Assembly (NCBI GenBank): GCA_036268615.1
Contig: DATATV010000051.1
Location: 22,759-86,758 of the forward strand
Direction of reading: 5' to 3'
Origin: Pseudonocardiaceae bacterium
GTDB taxonomy: Bacteria > Actinomycetota > Actinomycetes > Mycobacteriales > Pseudonocardiaceae
DNA: 64,000 bases
This document shows, piece by piece, positions 49,015 to 56,279 of this stretch. Position 1 is the stretch's first letter. Every line of letters begins with the position of its first letter. The notes beneath the pieces are model-generated. The model did not search any database. It had not been told where the DNA came from and was given only the letters and a program-made list of their open reading frames with translations. The translations under genes were made by a program, and so were the position numbers.

Positions 49015-49096
49015 CCACTGGGGCTCGCCAGGTCCTGCGAGATCAAGCCCTCTACCCCCGGGCCCACCGAAGCTCCCACCTGCACTTTTCCCACTG

Positions 49097-49170
49097 TCGG
49101 GGTAGCCGGATTTGAACCGGCGGCCCCTCGCTCCCAAAGCGAGTGCGCTACCAAACTGCGCTATACCCCG
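49097..49170 (-). tRNA. tRNA-Pro (anticodon TGG)
   Basis: Reverse complement CGGGGTA-TA-GCGC-AGTTTGGTA-GCGC-A-CTCGC-TTTGGGA-GCGAG-GGGCC-GCCGG-TTCAAAT-CCGGC-TACCCCG-A folds as a 74-nt cloverleaf. Confidence 0.93.
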
Positions 49171-49254: not shown

Positions 49255-49328
49255 GCGGGTGTAGCTCAATGGTAGAGCCCCAGCCTTCCAAGCTGGTCAT
49301 GCGGGTTCGATTCCCGTCACCCGCTCCA
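49255..49328 (+). tRNA. tRNA-Gly (anticodon TCC), CCA encoded
   Basis: GCGGGTG-TA-GCTC-AATGGTA-GAGC-C-CCAGC-CTTCCAA-GCTGG-TCAT-GCGGG-TTCGATT-CCCGT-CACCCGC-T-CCA. Confidence 0.93.
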
Positions 49329-49825: not shown

Positions 49826-49993
49826 TCAAGAGACGTACTGCCAGGTACACCCTGTCCCGTGATGATCGCCCCAATGATCGCACGCCGCGAACTTGGTGCC
49901 CGCCTTCACGTGGTCTCTCGTCCCGTTGTACTGCGTGCATTCCACAGTGCCGTTTCTGGGCACCGTGTCGCCTGGTTTGTAGGTCTGTGCCAT
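49826..49993 (-). CDS. small Cys/His-containing protein (YjzC-like?)
   Basis: MAQTYKPGDTVPRNGTVECTQYNGTRDHVKAGTKFAACDHWGDHHGTGCTWQYVS. GGAG RBS 8 nt upstream. The KPGD.VP.NG pattern recalls the YjzC family. Confidence 0.5.
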   Translation of the reverse strand: MAQTYKPGDTVPRNGTVECTQYNGTRDHVKAGTKFAACDHWGDHHGTGCTWQYVS

Positions 49994-50166
49994 CGGACAA
50001 TCTCCTGCAATGTCGCCAGTGGAGCCAAAGGGCCTAACCTTGGTTACTCGCAGAGTGACCAACGACCGTTAGCCACATCACTGAAGATGTCCCTGTTCTG
50101 TCACTCCTGTTCTGGACAGCCAGCGGCCCCGCGGCGACATCATCGGCCAGCCATGGACAGAACCGA

Positions 50167-50442
50167 TTACGCGGCCTCTCCCCCGTCGCCACCGTCCACA
50201 CTGTCGCCGTGCTTTCCTTCCTTCCGAGCGGCCTCGATCATCAGATTCAGCGCATCCGCGATCCGCCGGTCTCGCTCGGCGGTCACGTGCTGGTAGATCA
50301 TCGCGGCGCGAATGCTCGAATGGCCGATGCGCGACATGATCTCTTTGAGTGTCGCACCGGTCTGTGCGGTCAGCGTGCCGCCTGTACGCCGTAGGTCGTG
50401 CAGATGCAGGTCCGGATTCGCGCCAGTCTTCGCCGGCGTGAG
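50167..50442 (-). pseudogene. tyrosine recombinase/integrase, C-terminal fragment only
   Basis: Translation LTPAKTGANPDLHLHDLRRTGGTLTAQTGATLKEIMSRIGHSSIRAAMIYQHV... carries the HxLR, GH and catalytic Tyr blocks. An in-frame TAG lies immediately upstream at 50443-50445. Confidence 0.7.
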
Positions 50443-51015: not shown

Positions 51016-51870
51016 ATGCAGGTCGCATCGCTTTGGAAAACACTCGAGGAGCAACTTCTTCCAGTCTTCGCTGGATATCGCAGCCGCCTGTCCGAGTTGC
51101 CCATCGAGATCAAAGCTGATCGAACATTGCTGACCGAGGCGGATGTGGCCGTACAGAACCTGATCGTCCGTGAGATCCATCGCGTCGAGCCCGATGCCGT
51201 GATCATCGCCGAGGAAGACGGCCGTACGGATCAGAGAAAGGATGTAATCACGGCGTCTGGTCGGGTATGGGTGATCGATCCGATTGATGGAACAGCTGAA
51301 TTCGTCCGCCCCGAGCGGATCGAGTTCTGCTCCGTGGTGTGCTTGCTCGAGGACTGGCAGCCGGTCGCCGCATTTGTGCTCGGACCGGAACTCGGCGTTG
51401 GCCGGAGCCCCCTGGTGATACGCACGGACGCTGCGGCGGAAGTGTTGCTGTTGAACGAGGAGCCCGCGCCAAAACGAACATCGAGGAACGGCCCGGCATG
51501 GATCTCCGCCACCCGCAGTTCGGACGATCCCGTCCGGGCCTTCGATGACGTCGCCAAACAGGCGGGCTACCAACTCAAGAAACGGACCAGTTCCCAGACG
51601 CTGGACATGGTGCGTACTGCTGTCGACCTGACGGGCCACACCGAGCCCGCGCTACCGGCCTTCGACCTGTTCTGGCGGCGGCAGCAGAAGGTCTGGGATG
51701 GCCTCGCCGGGCTGTGCCTCGGTGCCAACGTGGGCCTGCGCAGCGTCGACGAGCGCGGCGAGGTGCTGCCGCTGGGGCCACAGTTGTTGAGTCAGGCTGA
51801 GCCGACGTTCGACTCGACGGTGATGGGGAGACCGGAGACAGTGTCCTGGTTCTTGGACGCGACACGGTGA
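51016..51870 (+). CDS. inositol monophosphatase / CysQ-family phosphatase
   Basis: Metal-binding IIAEEDG, signature WVIDPIDGTAEF and C-terminal WDGLAG, all family hallmarks. Confidence 0.75.
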   Translation: MQVASLWKTLEEQLLPVFAGYRSRLSELPIEIKADRTLLTEADVAVQNLIVREIHRVEPDAVIIAEEDGRTDQRKDVITASGRVWVIDPIDGTAEFVRPERIEFCSVVCLLEDWQPVAAFVLGPELGVGRSPLVIRTDAAAEVLLLNEEPAPKRTSRNGPAWISATRSSDDPVRAFDDVAKQAGYQLKKRTSSQTLDMVRTAVDLTGHTEPALPAFDLFWRRQQKVWDGLAGLCLGANVGLRSVDERGEVLPLGPQLLSQAEPTFDSTVMGRPETVSWFLDATR

Positions 51871-53132
51871 TGACCCGGCCAAACAACGATGTCCTCATAG
51901 ACGTAACGTCGTTGATCAGTGCCGAGGATTTCATAATCTCGCAAAATTACTCGGTCATGCCGGAAGACCCATTCGCCCGGCAGTGCTTCGTCGAGGTCGT
52001 CCAGTCCCTGATTTTCATGCCGCACGTCTACGTGGCCCATCCCGTCCTGCGCAGCCCGCGACCGGACGACTTCGGCGAGCGTCCGTTGCTGCTGCGGGCG
52101 CTCATGCGGGCCGGGATGCTACGCCCGCTACATCTGGACCGAGCCGAGCAAACGGCTGCGCAGCAGCTGGAGGACGCCGCGTTGGACGACCTCAAGAGCG
52201 CTCACGGCATGATCAGCATGGTGCGCTTCGTCGACCAGACGTTGGCCTGTGATCGGGCGAGTGTTGGCGGGCAAACAGCCATGTCTCAACGCCTGCGCCA
52301 GTGGAGCGGCTTCCAGGACCGGCAGGTACGTTCGACAGTGGGACATCACACCGACCGAATTCCGACCCGAGACGGAGTCGAGGAGGACGGCTTTGGTGAA
52401 TGGGCGCGGGCTGCCGCCGTGATCCTGAGTGGACCGCTGAAGGAAATTGCCCAACCAACGCAAGGGCAGTACGTCATGGCAACGCTCGCCCGAGGACTGA
52501 AGTACCAGGCGAGAGCAGATGCCAGCGCGGTCACCTACCAGTCCCATCCGATGCGCCGTGACTTCTCGCTCACCTTTGACCTGACTCGCGATGGCGTCAC
52601 AGGCAACGTTGTCCTCGGCGTCATCCAGGCCGTACGCGGTATCCACGCCTCGCTCACGGATGCCGGGGGAGCCAATGATTCCCACCGATTCGAACTGCTC
52701 CAACTGGAGCTGCCGCTTCTTGGTGGGAGGTTGTGGCCGCCATCGGAGACCGGGCGGCTCGACGACGATGAATGGATCGCCTTTGTCGTTGAGCGCATCA
52801 AGGACTACCGCATCCGCGCAACGGATCTGCGGCGCGCCGTCGAACTCTGCGTGACCGACGAGGACTATCTGCGCCTGGCTCGTGACATCGACGCAGTAAA
52901 ACGACAGCTACTGGAACGGCTTGGGCTGCGCCAAGTCGAACTGTCGGCGATGGAACGTGAACTGGTCGACTCCGTCGCCTCGGTGGCGCAGGCCGCGCCG
53001 GGGATACCCAAGGTCAGCGGTCTGTGGTTCGGCGCAAGAACGCTGGGCAAGAAATTCCGCTTCACGGGGCAGCCATACCAGAGGTTCCTGTACCGGGAGT
53101 TTGTTGATGCGTGGAAGCGAGCCAGCCACTAA
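51867..53132 (+). CDS. 421-aa protein of unknown function, translationally coupled to the IMPase-family gene
   Basis: Start overlaps the upstream stop (GTGATGA). No motif recognised anywhere. G+C lower than the backbone. Confidence 0.6.
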   Translation: MMTRPNNDVLIDVTSLISAEDFIISQNYSVMPEDPFARQCFVEVVQSLIFMPHVYVAHPVLRSPRPDDFGERPLLLRALMRAGMLRPLHLDRAEQTAAQQLEDAALDDLKSAHGMISMVRFVDQTLACDRASVGGQTAMSQRLRQWSGFQDRQVRSTVGHHTDRIPTRDGVEEDGFGEWARAAAVILSGPLKEIAQPTQGQYVMATLARGLKYQARADASAVTYQSHPMRRDFSLTFDLTRDGVTGNVVLGVIQAVRGIHASLTDAGGANDSHRFELLQLELPLLGGRLWPPSETGRLDDDEWIAFVVERIKDYRIRATDLRRAVELCVTDEDYLRLARDIDAVKRQLLERLGLRQVELSAMERELVDSVASVAQAAPGIPKVSGLWFGARTLGKKFRFTGQPYQRFLYREFVDAWKRASH

Positions 53133-53292: not shown

Positions 53293-54048
53293 TCAGGAGA
53301 GCAGGACTGCCCTGTCTCGGATGCTGTCCCAGGTGGTCGTCGGTAGGTCGGCTATGACCAGCAGCTCATCGACGTTGGCGAAGGAGCCGCCGTGGCGGCC
53401 TCGGGCTTCGACGATGGCTGCGCCTACCTCGGGCGGGATGCCGCAGACGTCGGCGATGGTGTGGGCGGGGGCGGTGTTCAGGTCGACCAGCCCACCGTCG
53501 TCGTAGGTTCGGGCCAGGTCGGGGCGGCCGACGTGGAGTTCGCGGGCCAGCATCGGGTCCTCCCGGGCCAGCTTTCGGGACTCCTCGCGGCGGGATCGGG
53601 CGGCCAGGATGGCCTGGACGGCGGGGTCCACCGCCGGAGCGTTGCTGATCAGGGCGCCTTCGTAGACCATGCGGCGGAGGGGGCCCAACTGGATGCAACC
53701 GACGATGATGACGGCGATCGCGAGTAGGCCACCGATCGTGCTGATGAGGCTGTTCGAGGTCGCCTGAGGCTGGCCTGCGGTGTTCTGCGGAGTCAGGGAC
53801 AGGAGCACGTAGATGACTACGTCGAGAGCGCCGTAGATCAGTGCCAGGAGGCGCGATTTCTTGGTACGCAACCGGTGGGCGGCGTGTACGAACGGGACCC
53901 AGGCGAACGTTCCGGCGGTGGCGATGAGGACGACGTAGTACCACCGGCCGGCTATCCGGAAGCCGCGGTGGACGGGCGGTGGGGTTCCCTGGGCGGGATT
54001 CTGCGGGGGTCCTGGGGCCCAGTTCCCTTGTGGGTTGTAGCTCTGCAT
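53293..54048 (-). CDS. 3-TM membrane protein with C-terminal ComEA-like helix-hairpin-helix domain
   Basis: Pro-rich N-terminus. TM helices WYYVVLIATAGTFAWVPFV, LLALIYGALDVVIYVLLSL and LISTIGGLLAIAVIIVGCI. C-terminal GGLVDLNTAPAHTIADVCGIPPEVGAAIVEARGRHGGSFANVDELL. Confidence 0.7.
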   Translation of the reverse strand: MQSYNPQGNWAPGPPQNPAQGTPPPVHRGFRIAGRWYYVVLIATAGTFAWVPFVHAAHRLRTKKSRLLALIYGALDVVIYVLLSLTPQNTAGQPQATSNSLISTIGGLLAIAVIIVGCIQLGPLRRMVYEGALISNAPAVDPAVQAILAARSRREESRKLAREDPMLARELHVGRPDLARTYDDGGLVDLNTAPAHTIADVCGIPPEVGAAIVEARGRHGGSFANVDELLVIADLPTTTWDSIRDRAVLLS

Positions 54049-54081
54049 CGCGTGTCCCGACCTTTCAGCTACTCGACGGGC

Positions 54082-55200
54082 TCAGCCCGCCATGTCGGCC
54101 CAGCCTCGGACGATCTCCAGTGCGGTGCGGATCGAGGTGATCCCGATTCGCGCCGGCCTTATCGAGTTCCGCATCGCCGAGTTCAGTACTTCGACCGGCA
54201 TCATGCGCGTCAGGAGCTCGGATATCGAATGCTCAACCGCGTCGAGTTCGTTCATACTGCCGGCCATCACCTTCAGTTCGCCGGCGAACTCGTCCTTCAT
54301 CTCCGGTGTGCCGAACTCCCTTACCAGCGAGTACAACGCGCGGATCGCCGAGTCCGCCTCGACCGCGCTGTTCTCCCATTCCCGGCCGATATTGCCGATT
54401 CGAGCACTGACATCCTTCATCTCCGGCGCCAGCGACAGCAGTATGGCCTGGCGGGAATCCTCCGGCGCGCTGTTGATCCGCGCGGTCGCGGAATCGAGCA
54501 CCAACTTCCACTCGACCATCGCGTCATACATCTCCTGACCGACGGCGGTCATGCGCTGCGCGGCCGCACCGAATGCCTGGACGTAGTCGAGCAGGCCGGG
54601 ATCATCGTCGTCGAACCGACTGGCGTCCGCGCCGGTCACCATGGCCGAGGCCGGTGGGCCGATCTCCTGGTCCAGGGATGACTCCGCCAGTTCGGTGGCG
54701 TCCACCAGCTTGTTGGCGACCGTGAGCATTGCTCGCCGCCAGGTTGCCGACGTCGTGCCCTCGATGGCCGCGTCTCGGAAGTCGAAGTACTGCCGTTGGG
54801 CGATGACCCGAGCGGCGATGTCGTCGCTGTCCTCGGTGATGTAACCCTGGCCCAGGACCAGAACCGGCAGTAGGAGGTCTGTCACACCGAGGTTCTTCGC
54901 GGCACTGTAGAAGGCGAGGATTTCCTCTCGACAGTATGAACGGTCGAAATACGTACGCGTCACCAGCGGCATGAACACCAGCGCGCCCTCGATGCTGGCG
55001 TTGATCTGTTGACGCCAGTCCTGGCCCCAGCCGATCGACTCCCGGTCGATGAAGACCTGAACCCGCCGACCACGGTCGCCGAAGCAGAGGCCCTCCAGGT
55101 CACGTTTGACGTTGTCCACGAAGCCGAGCATCTCGTCGTCGTTGCGCGAGTAGCTCAGGAAGCATTTGATCGGTGGCTGCTCGGTGGAAATCGCGCTCAT
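54082..55200 (-). CDS. TIR-domain protein with about 230-aa helical C-terminal domain of unknown function
   Basis: N-terminal KCFLSYSRNDDE...VQVFIDRESIGWGQDWRQQINASIEGALVFMPLVTRTYFDRSYCREEI fits the bacterial TIR_2 pattern, including a Glu after S-x-C (E92/E93). Confidence 0.75.
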   Translation of the reverse strand: MSAISTEQPPIKCFLSYSRNDDEMLGFVDNVKRDLEGLCFGDRGRRVQVFIDRESIGWGQDWRQQINASIEGALVFMPLVTRTYFDRSYCREEILAFYSAAKNLGVTDLLLPVLVLGQGYITEDSDDIAARVIAQRQYFDFRDAAIEGTTSATWRRAMLTVANKLVDATELAESSLDQEIGPPASAMVTGADASRFDDDDPGLLDYVQAFGAAAQRMTAVGQEMYDAMVEWKLVLDSATARINSAPEDSRQAILLSLAPEMKDVSARIGNIGREWENSAVEADSAIRALYSLVREFGTPEMKDEFAGELKVMAGSMNELDAVEHSISELLTRMMPVEVLNSAMRNSIRPARIGITSIRTALEIVRGWADMAG

Positions 55201-55320
55201 TACCTGACCTCGTCGCAGGACCCGCCCTCGGCTCGAACACTCAAACTTGTAGCACCGAGGGCCGACGTTTGATCAGCGATGAGGCGAATTGTCCTGCACT
55301 TGACCCGGAACTGTCCACAC

Positions 55321-55394: not shown

Positions 55395-55880
55395 TCATCC
55401 CTCGATCGTGAAGCCTGCCGTCTTCATGGCTTCGTCGAAGTTCACAGTCTTGTGTTGGATGCCGTTGAGCAGCCGAGGGATCGGCAGGTCCGCCGACGTG
55501 ACGGTCCACGTGGTGGCGTCGGGGGCGGTGTCGGCGTGGTCGTTGACCGGGGTCGGGTTCGGGAGGTAGACACGGTTGCCGTCCGCGGTCACCAGGAGGG
55601 TGCGCGTGACCGGCGTGCCCCGCCACAGCAATTCGGCCCAGAAGCCGCGGACCTTGGGGTCGGGGAAGTGCGACCACGCGGCCCATTCCTTGCCCCACTC
55701 CTCGCCCCGGTTGGCGTCCGCGCCCCAGGCGAGTGCCACGTCGAGGTCTGCCTTGTGGTGGGCCAGGTACTCGTACGAGCCGGCACCCAATCGCACGGGC
55801 TCGGCGGCCGACCTGTTGAGCAGGGCCCAGTCCGCCGGCTCGCTCTCGTGCACGAGGGTGATCAGCTCTTCGTAGCGCAT
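55395..55880 (-). CDS. 161-aa protein of unknown function
   Basis: Clean ORF, Trp-rich (WGKEWAAWSHFPDPKVRGFWAELLWRG). No motif recognised. Same strand as, and upstream of, the TIR gene. Confidence 0.5.
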   Translation of the reverse strand: MRYEELITLVHESEPADWALLNRSAAEPVRLGAGSYEYLAHHKADLDVALAWGADANRGEEWGKEWAAWSHFPDPKVRGFWAELLWRGTPVTRTLLVTADGNRVYLPNPTPVNDHADTAPDATTWTVTSADLPIPRLLNGIQHKTVNFDEAMKTAGFTIEG

Positions 55881-55931: not shown

Positions 55932-56279
55932 TCAGGCTCGGGCTCGGTTCGTTCGCGTCGGCGGGAGCGGGCGGCGGGGTTCGCGGACGCCTGCCTGTCC
56001 GTCGTCGCCGGACAGCCGGACGGTGACAGTTGAGGCTGCGGGGAGCCAGGCGCCGGGTTCCGGGTGCTGGTCCACGACTGTTCCCTCGTCGGTGGACGAC
56101 TCGCCAGTGGACGGCTCCTCGGTGGACGAGGAGATCACCAGTGCGGCGGGGACGGCCTTGCGGGCCTCGGCCAGGGACAGGCCGGTGAGATCGGGGACCA
56201 GGTTGAGGCCGGCCAGGTCGGCGGGTGGGCGGCTGTAGTTCAGTCTGCGCGCGAGCTTCGTCTTGCCGCTTCCCATCAT
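55932..56279 (-). CDS. small protein with a PASTA-like domain
   Basis: Strong RBS GGAGG before ATGATG. VPDLTGLSLAEARKAV...VVDQHPEPGAWLPAASTVTVRLS resembles one PASTA repeat. N-terminal MMGSGKT is an incomplete P-loop. Confidence 0.45.
   Translation of the reverse strand: MMGSGKTKLARRLNYSRPPADLAGLNLVPDLTGLSLAEARKAVPAALVISSSTEEPSTGESSTDEGTVVDQHPEPGAWLPAASTVTVRLSGDDGQAGVREPRRPLPPTRTNRARA

What the first reader, a model, noticed from the sequence alone, without database searches (positions are those of the whole stretch)
53293..55200. Orphan TIR-domain protein coupled to a 3-TM helix-hairpin-helix membrane protein: candidate undescribed defence-type module
Seen in sequence:
- The 372-aa ORF opens with a bacterial TIR pattern: KCFLSYSRNDDE, VFIDRESIGWGQDWRQQI, and FMPLVTRTYFDRSYCREE, with Glu92/Glu93 where TIR NADases carry their catalytic Glu.
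- It continues into an all-helical region of about 230 aa in which I recognise nothing.
- 33 nt downstream on the same strand is a protein with a Pro-rich N-terminus, three TM helices and a ComEA-like HhH DNA-binding module.

Established knowledge: bacterial TIR domains act in Thoeris, CBASS/Pycsar effectors, SPARTA, retron and NLR-like systems as NAD+-consuming or signal-producing enzymes.

Inference:
- None of the usual partners (SIR2/Macro ThsA, STING, SAVED, APAZ/Argonaute, NACHT/STAND ATPase, reverse transcriptase) is present within several kb.
- The pairing with a membrane-anchored HhH protein therefore does not match any described architecture I know.
- The pair sits in a lower-G+C island next to tRNA-Gly.
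Basis: partly seen in the sequence, partly recalled or inferred. Interest (0 to 1): 0.8.

Follow-up and report, generated by a model that had tools for sequence, protein, structure and literature searches.

The report
Standalone TIR protein, unrelated membrane neighbour
The TIR gene is real and belongs to an uncharacterised family of single-protein, probably phage-defence NAD-cleaving enzymes, but the membrane DNA-binding gene beside it is a chance neighbour, not a conserved partner.

Summary
Both ORFs exist as described, on the minus strand and 33 nt apart. The 372-aa protein (54082-55200) has a TIR_2 domain (E=1.2e-13). The 251-aa protein (53293-54048) has three hydrophobic helices and an HHH_3 domain (E=6.8e-9).

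- 17 diverged TIR homologue loci (24-41% identity) have no HhH relative within 10 kb or to the contig end, and most have a convergent gene downstream.
- 83 HhH-family loci have no TIR gene; 43 of them have at least 1.3 kb of upstream sequence.
- The pair occurs only in four 99-100% identical metagenome contigs.

What is there is one member of a coherent, uncatalogued family: an N-terminal TIR with a conserved Glu93 at the catalytic position, a disordered linker, and a conserved ~170-aa five-helix C-terminal domain. That domain has no Pfam or PADLOC model and no specific structural match. It has 657 representatives; 91 of 95 tested carry TIR, and one carries a CBASS-type HNH nuclease instead.

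Some homologues sit in defence islands or mobile elements. The window copy lies in a decayed tRNA-Gly island with an integrase remnant.

Best reading: a single-polypeptide, SpbK-like abortive-infection NADase. This is a new variant of a known kind, of moderate interest.

The parts
54082..55200 (-). Gene for the 372-aa TIR plus helical C-terminal-domain protein. This is the conserved unit.
   Evidence: ORF. Pfam TIR_2 E=1.2e-13. 44 family clusters found with the family profile. About 15 full-length homologues in named actinomycete genomes.
54661..55170 (-). TIR domain (aa 11-180).
   Evidence: The AF2 model has the alternating strand/helix pattern of a TIR fold over aa 11-180. The top Foldseek PDB hits over about 180 columns are TIR domains: SPARTA TIR-APAZ (8qlp, E=7e-3), SNC1, RPPT, RPP1 and SpbK.
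54922..54924 (-). Codon for Glu93, the predicted catalytic glutamate (C90-R91-E92-E93).
   Evidence: Invariant in 41 sequences and at least 90% conserved in 95. It aligns with the Glu of the 'CwdEL' motif in Cat1 and the 'ClmEL' motif in L6. That this Glu is catalytic in TIR NADases is established knowledge, not tested here.
54088..54600 (-). Conserved five-helix C-terminal domain (aa 201-371), not modelled in Pfam, NCBIfam or PADLOC.
   Evidence: pLDDT is about 85-94 over this region. Conserved positions are D283, S340, R344, G353 and W367. The domain-only profile finds 657 representatives, 291 of them at E<=1e-10. PDB matches are only to generic coiled coils.
55288..55317 (-). Sigma-70-like promoter match upstream of the TIR gene.
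   Evidence: 9 of 12 matches; 0.3 expected by chance in the region. This is a consensus match only. No terminator-like site was found on the minus strand in the region scanned.
53293..54048 (-). Gene for the 251-aa membrane protein with three hydrophobic helices and a C-terminal HhH domain. It is probably co-transcribed here but is not a conserved partner.
   Evidence: HHH_3 E=6.8e-9. Hydropathy. At least 150 family clusters across Pseudonocardiaceae. 0 of 83 family loci have a TIR or C-terminal-domain gene.
50190..50430 (-). C-terminal remnant of a tyrosine recombinase (island context).
   Evidence: The translation reads ...HDLRRT...IGHSS...IYQH... with stop codons upstream. Pfam Phage_integrase 28 bits against a cutoff of 27.1, profile positions 127-171 of 172.
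49255..49328 (+). tRNA-Gly(tcc), the likely former integration site of the island.
   Evidence: ARAGORN. The drop in G+C begins here. No att-like repeat of its 3' end was found in the window.
51016..53132 (+). IMPase/CysQ-like gene (284 aa) overlapping by 4 nt with a 421-aa gene of unknown family. This is island cargo, convergent with the HhH gene.
   Evidence: Inositol_P E=2e-21. The 421-aa protein has no hit in Pfam, NCBIfam, PADLOC, PHROGs or PDB. GC3 is 0.74-0.75. Relatives of these two genes were found only in the near-identical contigs.

Best explanation
The 372-aa protein is a self-contained, single-polypeptide effector of an uncharacterised family.

Architecture (shown): an N-terminal TIR domain with an intact catalytic glutamate, a flexible linker of about 20 residues, and a conserved C-terminal bundle of five long helices.

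Proposed mechanism (inferred, by analogy with SpbK and other TIR NADases):
1. In uninfected cells the protein is inactive.
2. The helical domain binds a multimeric phage-derived trigger or otherwise self-associates.
3. This clusters the TIR domains so that composite active sites form between neighbouring TIRs.
4. NAD+ is cleaved, to depletion and/or ADPR-type products, and the infection is aborted.

The HhH membrane gene 33 nt downstream is a separate, widespread Pseudonocardiaceae gene. It came to lie next to the TIR gene only in this lineage, on a decayed island integrated at tRNA-Gly. It is probably co-transcribed, but it is not a required partner.
For: Shown:
- The TIR domain is significant, folds as a TIR, and has Glu93 conserved and aligned to the Glu of the C-x-x-E-L motif of solved TIRs.
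- The C-terminal domain is conserved. 657 representatives carry it, and most of the listed full-length ones are about 340-420 aa with the domain at about 200-370.
- 91 of 95 tested members carry TIR_2.
- One member (P0264) instead has a CBASS-type HNH endonuclease effector at aa 2-161 (E=1.7e-24) in front of the same domain. It lies beside a KAP NTPase and a serine recombinase. This is an effector swap on a constant module.
- The domain occurs once per locus, so it is not an adaptor paired with a neighbouring gene.
- The family has no conserved neighbour, and the downstream gene is mostly convergent.
- The HhH gene is absent from 17 diverged TIR loci. TIR is absent from 83 HhH loci and from three isolate-genome contexts.
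- Defence or mobile context in some members: Microbacterium oryzae L016 sits between a TIR-AAA-TPR protein and a type IIG R-M plus GmrSD; Curtobacterium L019 is beside a resolvase and a PDC-S02 nuclease.
- In several loci the gene's GC3 is lower than that of its neighbours.
- The window copy lies in an island with an integrase remnant next to tRNA-Gly.

Functional precedent: SpbK is a 4-helix-bundle plus TIR NADase activated when a phage portal clusters it (PMC12847820).
Against: - There is no experimental or direct evidence of NADase activity or of phage defence.
- No PADLOC model covers the whole protein. The current DefenseFinder release could not be run.
- In two genera the gene sits in conserved, housekeeping-looking synteny: whiB, a 541-aa gene and Cpn10 in the Actinokineospora-like loci, and a fixed context in four Amycolatopsis species. 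That is not typical of defence islands.
- GC3 of the window gene is host-like.
- The effector-swap argument rests on one sequence out of 95.
- Foldseek E-values for the TIR matches are weak (7e-3 or worse).
- The helical domain has no identifiable relative, so its sensor role is inferred only from architecture.
- The 33-nt spacing, with no terminator found, means co-expression with the HhH gene in this lineage cannot be dismissed.
Confidence: 0.55

Rival explanations
1. In this Pseudonocardiaceae lineage the TIR protein and the membrane-tethered HhH protein have become a functional two-gene operon. For example, the HhH protein could sense or tether invading DNA at the membrane and activate the TIR protein, or it could act as an effector of a TIR product.
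For: The genes are on the same strand, 33 nt apart, with no terminator found on that strand in the region scanned and a promoter-like site only upstream of the TIR gene. The pair is kept intact in four independent 99-100% identical contigs even where the left side of the island differs through an IS3 insertion in L001. The positive-inside rule suggests the HhH domain faces the cytoplasm, where it could meet the TIR protein (inference).
Against: There is no co-conservation from either side: 0 of 17 diverged TIR loci and 0 of 83 HhH loci, 43 of which have enough upstream sequence. Both families are standalone genes elsewhere. The four contigs that share the pair are nearly identical, so they count as one evolutionary observation.
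Confidence: 0.12
2. The TIR plus helical-domain protein is not an anti-phage gene. It would be a resident regulatory or stress-response NAD+-processing or signalling protein of actinomycetes.
For: The gene keeps a syntenic position next to whiB, a 541-aa GroEL-sized gene and Cpn10 in the Actinokineospora-like loci L003, L012, L013 and L018, and a fixed context in four Amycolatopsis species. GC3 in the window is host-like. Two members have an N-terminal XRE-type HTH fused, suggesting a regulatory link. No full-length PADLOC match exists, and no viral contig, PHROG or phage record matches.
Against: Distribution is patchy across distant actinomycete genera at 24-41% identity. Some loci are defence islands or mobile elements. 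An HNH nuclease variant exists on the same domain. In the Amycolatopsis loci the gene has lower GC3 (0.73-0.82) than its neighbours. One copy, L039, appears frameshifted, consistent with a dispensable gene.
Confidence: 0.2
3. The downstream gene is a ComEA-type DNA-uptake receptor, and the locus is a competence-related gene with an incidental TIR neighbour.
For: The HHH_3 domain is present, with weak hits to the ComEA HhH models TIGR00426 and TIGR01259. Some database entries name relatives 'ComEA family DNA-binding protein'.
Against: Scores are far below the NCBIfam cutoffs (22.4 against 53.1, and 19.4 against 152.35). No other Pfam domain was found outside the HhH region. No ComEC-type gene appears among the neighbours listed in the window-equivalent contig or in three isolate-genome loci. 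The charge distribution suggests the HhH domain is cytoplasmic, the opposite of ComEA (inference).
Confidence: 0.08

Closest known systems
SpbK of Bacillus subtilis ICEBs1 (single-protein TIR NADase abortive-infection system; PMC12847820)
   Same: Both are one polypeptide made of a small all-helical bundle plus a TIR domain. Neither needs a partner gene. Both are carried on an integrated mobile element. In SpbK, activation works by the bundle docking on a multimeric phage protein so that the TIR domains cluster, which is the mechanism I propose here.
   Different: The domain order is reversed: the SpbK bundle is N-terminal and about 94 aa, whereas here it is C-terminal, about 170 aa and five long helices. 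No sequence similarity was detected between the bundles. The SpbK TIR appears only as a weak structural hit (9phb_A, E=0.33). Trigger and products are unknown here.
PADLOC candidate PDC-S66 (single-gene TIR candidate)
   Same: It is the best PADLOC hit. 78 of 95 family members match it, with a best E-value of 7.6e-12.
   Different: For the window protein the match covers only the TIR part: protein aa 8-113 against profile positions 146-240 of 282. In PDC-S66 the TIR therefore follows another N-terminal region, and nothing in that model covers the C-terminal helical domain.
Thoeris ThsB, SPARTA TIR-APAZ, and CBASS/Pycsar TIR effectors
   Same: They share the TIR fold and the conserved catalytic Glu. 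SPARTA TIR-APAZ chains are the top structural matches.
   Different: The window has no ThsA, Argonaute/APAZ, SAVED/STING or cyclase within about 10 kb. ThsB models match only 3-4 of 95 family members, and weakly.
ComEA (for the neighbouring 251-aa protein)
   Same: Both have a membrane anchor plus a C-terminal HHH_3 DNA-binding module.
   Different: The protein scores below the family cutoffs. It has three hydrophobic helices rather than one, no other detected Pfam domain, no competence-gene neighbours in the contexts examined, and a probably cytoplasmic HhH domain.

Membership tests
TIR domain superfamily (Pfam TIR_2, PF13676) | Profile match above the gathering threshold | tested here: met
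   52 bits against a cutoff of 28, E=1.2e-13, aa 14-144. 91 of 95 family members also match.
TIR domain superfamily (Pfam TIR_2, PF13676) | Flavodoxin-like TIR fold | tested here: met
   The confident AF2 model has solved TIR domains as its top Foldseek hits (SPARTA, SNC1, RPPT, RPP1, SpbK), with probability 1.00 but E-values of only 7e-3 to 0.3.
NAD+-cleaving TIR enzymes | Conserved catalytic Glu in the alpha-C helix (C-x-x-E-L motif) | tested here: met
   E93 is invariant in 41 sequences and at least 90% conserved in 95. It aligns with the motif Glu of Cat1 and L6.
NAD+-cleaving TIR enzymes | Measured NADase or cyclase activity | not testable with these tools
   This needs a biochemical assay.
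   0 of 17 diverged TIR loci have an HhH relative. 0 of 83 HhH loci have a TIR or C-terminal-domain gene, and 43 of them have at least 1.3 kb upstream. The pair occurs only in 99-100% identical contigs.
Thoeris | ThsB TIR protein encoded next to a ThsA (SIR2 or Macro/SLOG) effector | tested here: not met
   No such domain was found in the neighbours. Only a below-cutoff NCBIfam ThcB4 hit was seen, 18 bits against 220.
SPARTA / short pAgo | TIR fused to APAZ, with an adjacent short Argonaute | tested here: not met
   The C-terminal half is an all-helical bundle, and Pfam, NCBIfam and PADLOC report nothing there. No Argonaute-type domain appears among the neighbours.
CBASS / Pycsar TIR effectors | A SAVED, STING or cNMP-binding sensor domain, plus a cyclase gene | tested here: not met
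   No such domain was found in the protein or its neighbours.
PADLOC PDC-S66 | Full-length match to the model | tested here: not met
   Only profile positions 146-240 of 282 are matched, by aa 8-113, at E=5.9e-5.
FxsC (TIR-like protein of the FxSxx-COOH system) | NCBIfam NF040588 above its cutoff | tested here: not met
   36.4 bits against a cutoff of 130.
SpbK-like single-protein TIR defence | Homology of the helical sensor domain and a demonstrated phage trigger | tested here: not met
   No sequence match between the C-terminal domain and any solved structure beyond generic coiled coils. A trigger cannot be tested here. The resemblance is functional and architectural only.
ComEA (neighbouring protein) | NCBIfam TIGR01259 or TIGR00426 above their cutoffs | tested here: not met
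   19.4 against 152.35, and 22.4 against 53.1. Only the generic HHH_3 domain passes.
Effector-associated adaptor domains (homotypic pairing with a neighbouring STAND NTPase) | A second copy of the same helical domain in an adjacent gene | tested here: not met
   The C-terminal-domain HMM hits exactly one ORF per locus across the window and 43 other loci searched.

The most novel reading that the evidence does not exclude
The conserved ~170-aa helical C-terminal domain is a new phage-sensing or oligomerisation module that can drive either a TIR NADase or an HNH nuclease. That would define a previously uncatalogued family of single-gene abortive-infection systems, seen here mostly in Actinomycetota. 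A less likely extension is that in this one lineage the family has recruited a membrane-tethered HhH DNA-binding protein as an accessory.
Probability: 0.4. Interest if true: 0.55.

Novelty: new variant of a known kind. Interest (0 to 1): 0.35.

Why it matters
If the family is confirmed as a defence system, it would add a single-gene TIR system native to high-G+C actinomycetes. These are antibiotic producers whose phage defences are little explored. It would also add a new helical trigger-sensing domain shared between TIR and HNH effectors. Identifying what that domain recognises would extend the SpbK principle, in which a multimeric phage structure clusters TIR domains, to a different fold and phylum. 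The negative result also matters: tight spacing of two genes in one lineage was not evidence of a system here.

Tried and rejected
- First structure prediction, with a 4-sequence alignment: pLDDT was 60 and the fold search on it returned only noise such as lumazine synthases. I discarded it and repeated with 41 sequences.
- Foldseek of the good model against PDB and BFVD: only weak TIR hits, and nothing for the helical domain.
- Profile searches of the helical domain against PDB sequences: only designed coiled coils, apolipoproteins and chemoreceptor bundles, which I read as compositional matches.
- Search for an att repeat of the tRNA-Gly 3' end, exact and with up to 3 mismatches: none found, so the island's right boundary is undefined.
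- Viral contig scan for the TIR family, PHROGs for all island ORFs, and a phage tblastn for the HhH protein: no hits.
- Plasmid tblastn for the TIR protein: only two TIR-only matches, in Agrobacterium and Caballeronia.
- Adaptor-domain (EAD-like) hypothesis for the helical domain: rejected because no second copy exists in any locus.
- Shared-context test: no HhH-family locus or TIR-family locus shares any other window gene. The only matches were two weak MarR hits at 33% identity in TIR-only Kitasatospora loci.
- Literature: no paper describing this architecture was found. PDC-S66 is mentioned only in two genome surveys. The 2025 language-model preprint on actinobacterial defences mentions TIR only in its reference list. 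'FxsC' plus 'TIR' gave nothing relevant.
Full report
**Observation**

ORF 54082..55200 (-) encodes 372 aa and ORF 53293..54048 (-) encodes 251 aa, with a 33-nt spacer. The first has a Pfam TIR_2 match well above threshold (E=1.2e-13, 52 bits against 28, aa 14-144). The second has HHH_3 (E=6.8e-9, aa 187-245). A hydropathy scan gives three hydrophobic segments in the second protein, at 39-57, 67-85 and 101-119.

**Local context**

- tRNA-Gly(tcc) is at 49255-49328 and tRNA-Pro at 49096-49170.
- Total G+C falls to 0.60-0.65 from the tRNA to about 55.4 kb, against 0.70-0.74 outside.
- The minus strand at about 50190-50430 encodes the last ~80 residues of a tyrosine recombinase (HDLRRT...IGHSS...IYQH), preceded by stop codons. 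It passes Pfam's Phage_integrase threshold over profile positions 127-171 of 172.
- The region is therefore a decayed integrative island. I could not find an att repeat.
- By third-position G+C the clearly foreign part is 49.8-53.1 kb (0.67-0.75). It holds an IMPase/CysQ-like gene that overlaps a 421-aa gene with no match anywhere.
- The TIR gene (0.83) and the HhH gene (0.85) are close to the flanking genes, which range from 0.83 to 0.94.
- A promoter-like site lies upstream of the TIR gene, and no terminator-like site was found on that strand. Co-transcription is likely in this lineage.
- The window is 100% identical to a JGI metagenome contig (L045). The HhH protein is identical to one annotated from a Pseudonocardiaceae MAG.

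**Is the pair a module?**

From the TIR side:
- The word-index search found only four clusters.
- A genome scan found about 15 full-length homologues at 24-40% identity in Saccharopolyspora, Amycolatopsis, Actinophytocola, Actinokineospora, Nocardioides, Microbacterium, Curtobacterium and two MAGs.
- tblastn with the HhH protein, the IMPase-like protein, the 421-aa protein and the 161-aa upstream protein against all these loci hit only the two ~99% identical contigs available at that point.
- Gene calls show that the downstream gene is usually convergent and differs between genera. Examples are a GNAT acetyltransferase, a TPR protein, a PhoD phosphatase, a glycosyl hydrolase and a nucleoid-associated protein.

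From the HhH side:
- The family has at least 150 clusters across Pseudonocardiaceae, some with an N-terminal DUF4236.
- Three isolate-genome contexts are unrelated to one another and lack TIR.
- Six-frame HMM searches of 83 loci found no TIR or C-terminal-domain gene, and 43 of those loci have at least 1.3 kb upstream.
- No locus shares any other window gene.

The pair is seen only in four contigs that are 99-100% identical, which amounts to one evolutionary observation.

**What the TIR protein is**

A profile search enlarged the family to 44 clusters, nearly all 310-420 aa. In the 41-sequence alignment F50, W58, G59, P78, C90, E93, L109, L111, P112 and R351 are invariant.

AlphaFold2 on that alignment gave a confident model (pLDDT 88.8, pTM 0.79). 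It shows a TIR-type alpha/beta domain at 11-180, a disordered linker at about 181-200, and five long helices at 201-371. Foldseek against PDB returned TIR domains as the top hits over about 180 columns (SPARTA TIR-APAZ, SNC1, RPPT, RPP1, SpbK) and nothing specific for the helical half. Sequence profiles of that half hit only designed coiled coils, apolipoproteins and chemoreceptor bundles.

phmmer alignments place E93 opposite the Glu of the C-x-x-E-L motif in Cat1 and flax L6. From established knowledge of TIR NADases, that is the catalytic residue.

**The C-terminal domain**

An exhaustive search of 1.84 billion representatives with the domain alone found 657 proteins at E<=0.001, 291 of them at E<=1e-10. 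Most listed full-length hits have the same architecture, with the domain at about 200-370 of proteins 340-420 aa long.

Of 95 long members:
- 91 have TIR_2.
- 78 hit the PADLOC candidate PDC-S66. For the window protein that match covers only the TIR part.
- Two members add an N-terminal XRE-type HTH.
- One, P0264, has no TIR. Instead it has a CBASS-type HNH endonuclease effector at aa 2-161 (E=1.7e-24) in front of the same domain. Its gene lies beside a KAP NTPase and a serine recombinase.

The domain occurs once per locus. That excludes an adaptor that pairs with a copy in a neighbouring NTPase. The same TIR subtype is also fused to other, longer C-terminal regions in loci L020-L030.

**Is it a defence gene?**

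The evidence is mixed but leans towards yes.

For:
- In Microbacterium oryzae the homologue lies between a TIR-AAA-TPR protein and a type IIG R-M enzyme plus a GmrSD type IV restriction enzyme.
- In Curtobacterium it lies beside a resolvase and a PDC-S02 nuclease.
- In a Propionibacteriaceae MAG it lies near a RelA/SpoT-like PDC-S33 hit.
- In several loci its GC3 is below that of its neighbours.
- One copy, in Amycolatopsis rubida, appears frameshifted.

Against:
- The Actinokineospora-like loci share a whiB, 541-aa gene and Cpn10 context, and four Amycolatopsis species share another.
- No full-length PADLOC model matches.

**Mechanism**

Shown: an intact TIR with the conserved catalytic Glu; a conserved helical bundle tethered by a flexible linker; no conserved partner; one example of effector exchange.

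Inferred: the bundle senses a trigger or self-associates, clustering the TIR domains to form composite active sites that cleave NAD+ and abort infection. This follows SpbK, in which a 4-helix-bundle domain docks on the dodecameric phage portal and brings the TIR domains together (PMC12847820). It is a 'works like' statement only. The domain order is reversed, and no homology between the bundles was detected.

**The HhH protein**

It has a generic HHH_3 domain but falls far below the ComEA model cutoffs. It has no competence-gene neighbours in the contexts examined. Its charge distribution suggests a cytoplasmic HhH domain (inference). Its own function remains open. The data say only that it does not need, and is not needed by, the TIR family.

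**Verdict**

The interpretation as a coupled TIR plus HhH module is not supported. The TIR protein is a member of an uncharacterised TIR(/HNH) plus helical-domain family that is plausibly a single-gene abortive-infection system. This is a new variant of a known kind, of moderate interest (0.35).

Noticed in passing
window 50190-50430 (-): The C-terminal ~80-aa remnant of a tyrosine recombinase (HDLRRT...IGHSS...IYQH) with stop codons upstream. It lies 0.9 kb from tRNA-Gly and marks a decayed integrative island. No att repeat was found.
   Followed up: yes
window 51016-53132 (+): An IMPase/CysQ-like gene (284 aa) whose stop overlaps by 4 nt the start of a 421-aa gene. The 421-aa protein has no hit in Pfam, NCBIfam, PADLOC, PHROGs or PDB sequences. 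At GC3 0.74-0.75 these two genes, with the 78-aa ORF at 49826-50062 (0.67), are the most foreign-looking part of the island. Whether the pair is a functional unit is unknown.
   Followed up: partly
L001:4400-7133 versus window ~50191: A 99.6% identical metagenome contig diverges from the window at about 50191. There it carries an IS3-family transposase (HTH_Tnp_1 + rve) instead of the integrase remnant and tRNA side. The 421-aa gene is called there as two pieces of 207 and 193 aa.
   Followed up: partly
L016:5023-17101 (Microbacterium oryzae): A compact defence island around the TIR-family homologue: a TIR-AAA-TPR protein (899 aa), a type IIG R-M-like protein (815 aa) and a GmrSD/RAMA type IV restriction enzyme (732 aa).
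   Followed up: partly
L130:609-1718 (metagenome contig, protein P0264): An HNH endonuclease effector fused to the same C-terminal helical domain in place of TIR. It sits next to a KAP-family NTPase and a large serine recombinase.
   Followed up: partly
L039:9911-10692 (Amycolatopsis rubida): The TIR-family homologue appears split into an 89-aa piece and a 217-aa piece in different frames. This is probably a frameshifted pseudogene.
   Followed up: no
window 55395-55880 (-) and 55932-56279 (-): A 161-aa ORF with no family match lies 194 nt upstream of the TIR gene. Beyond it is a standalone 115-aa single-PASTA-domain protein.
   Followed up: no
HhH family proteins P0006, P0009, P0013, P0014 and others: Several close relatives of the 251-aa HhH membrane protein carry an extra DUF4236 (PF14020) domain and are 370-395 aa long.
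   Followed up: no
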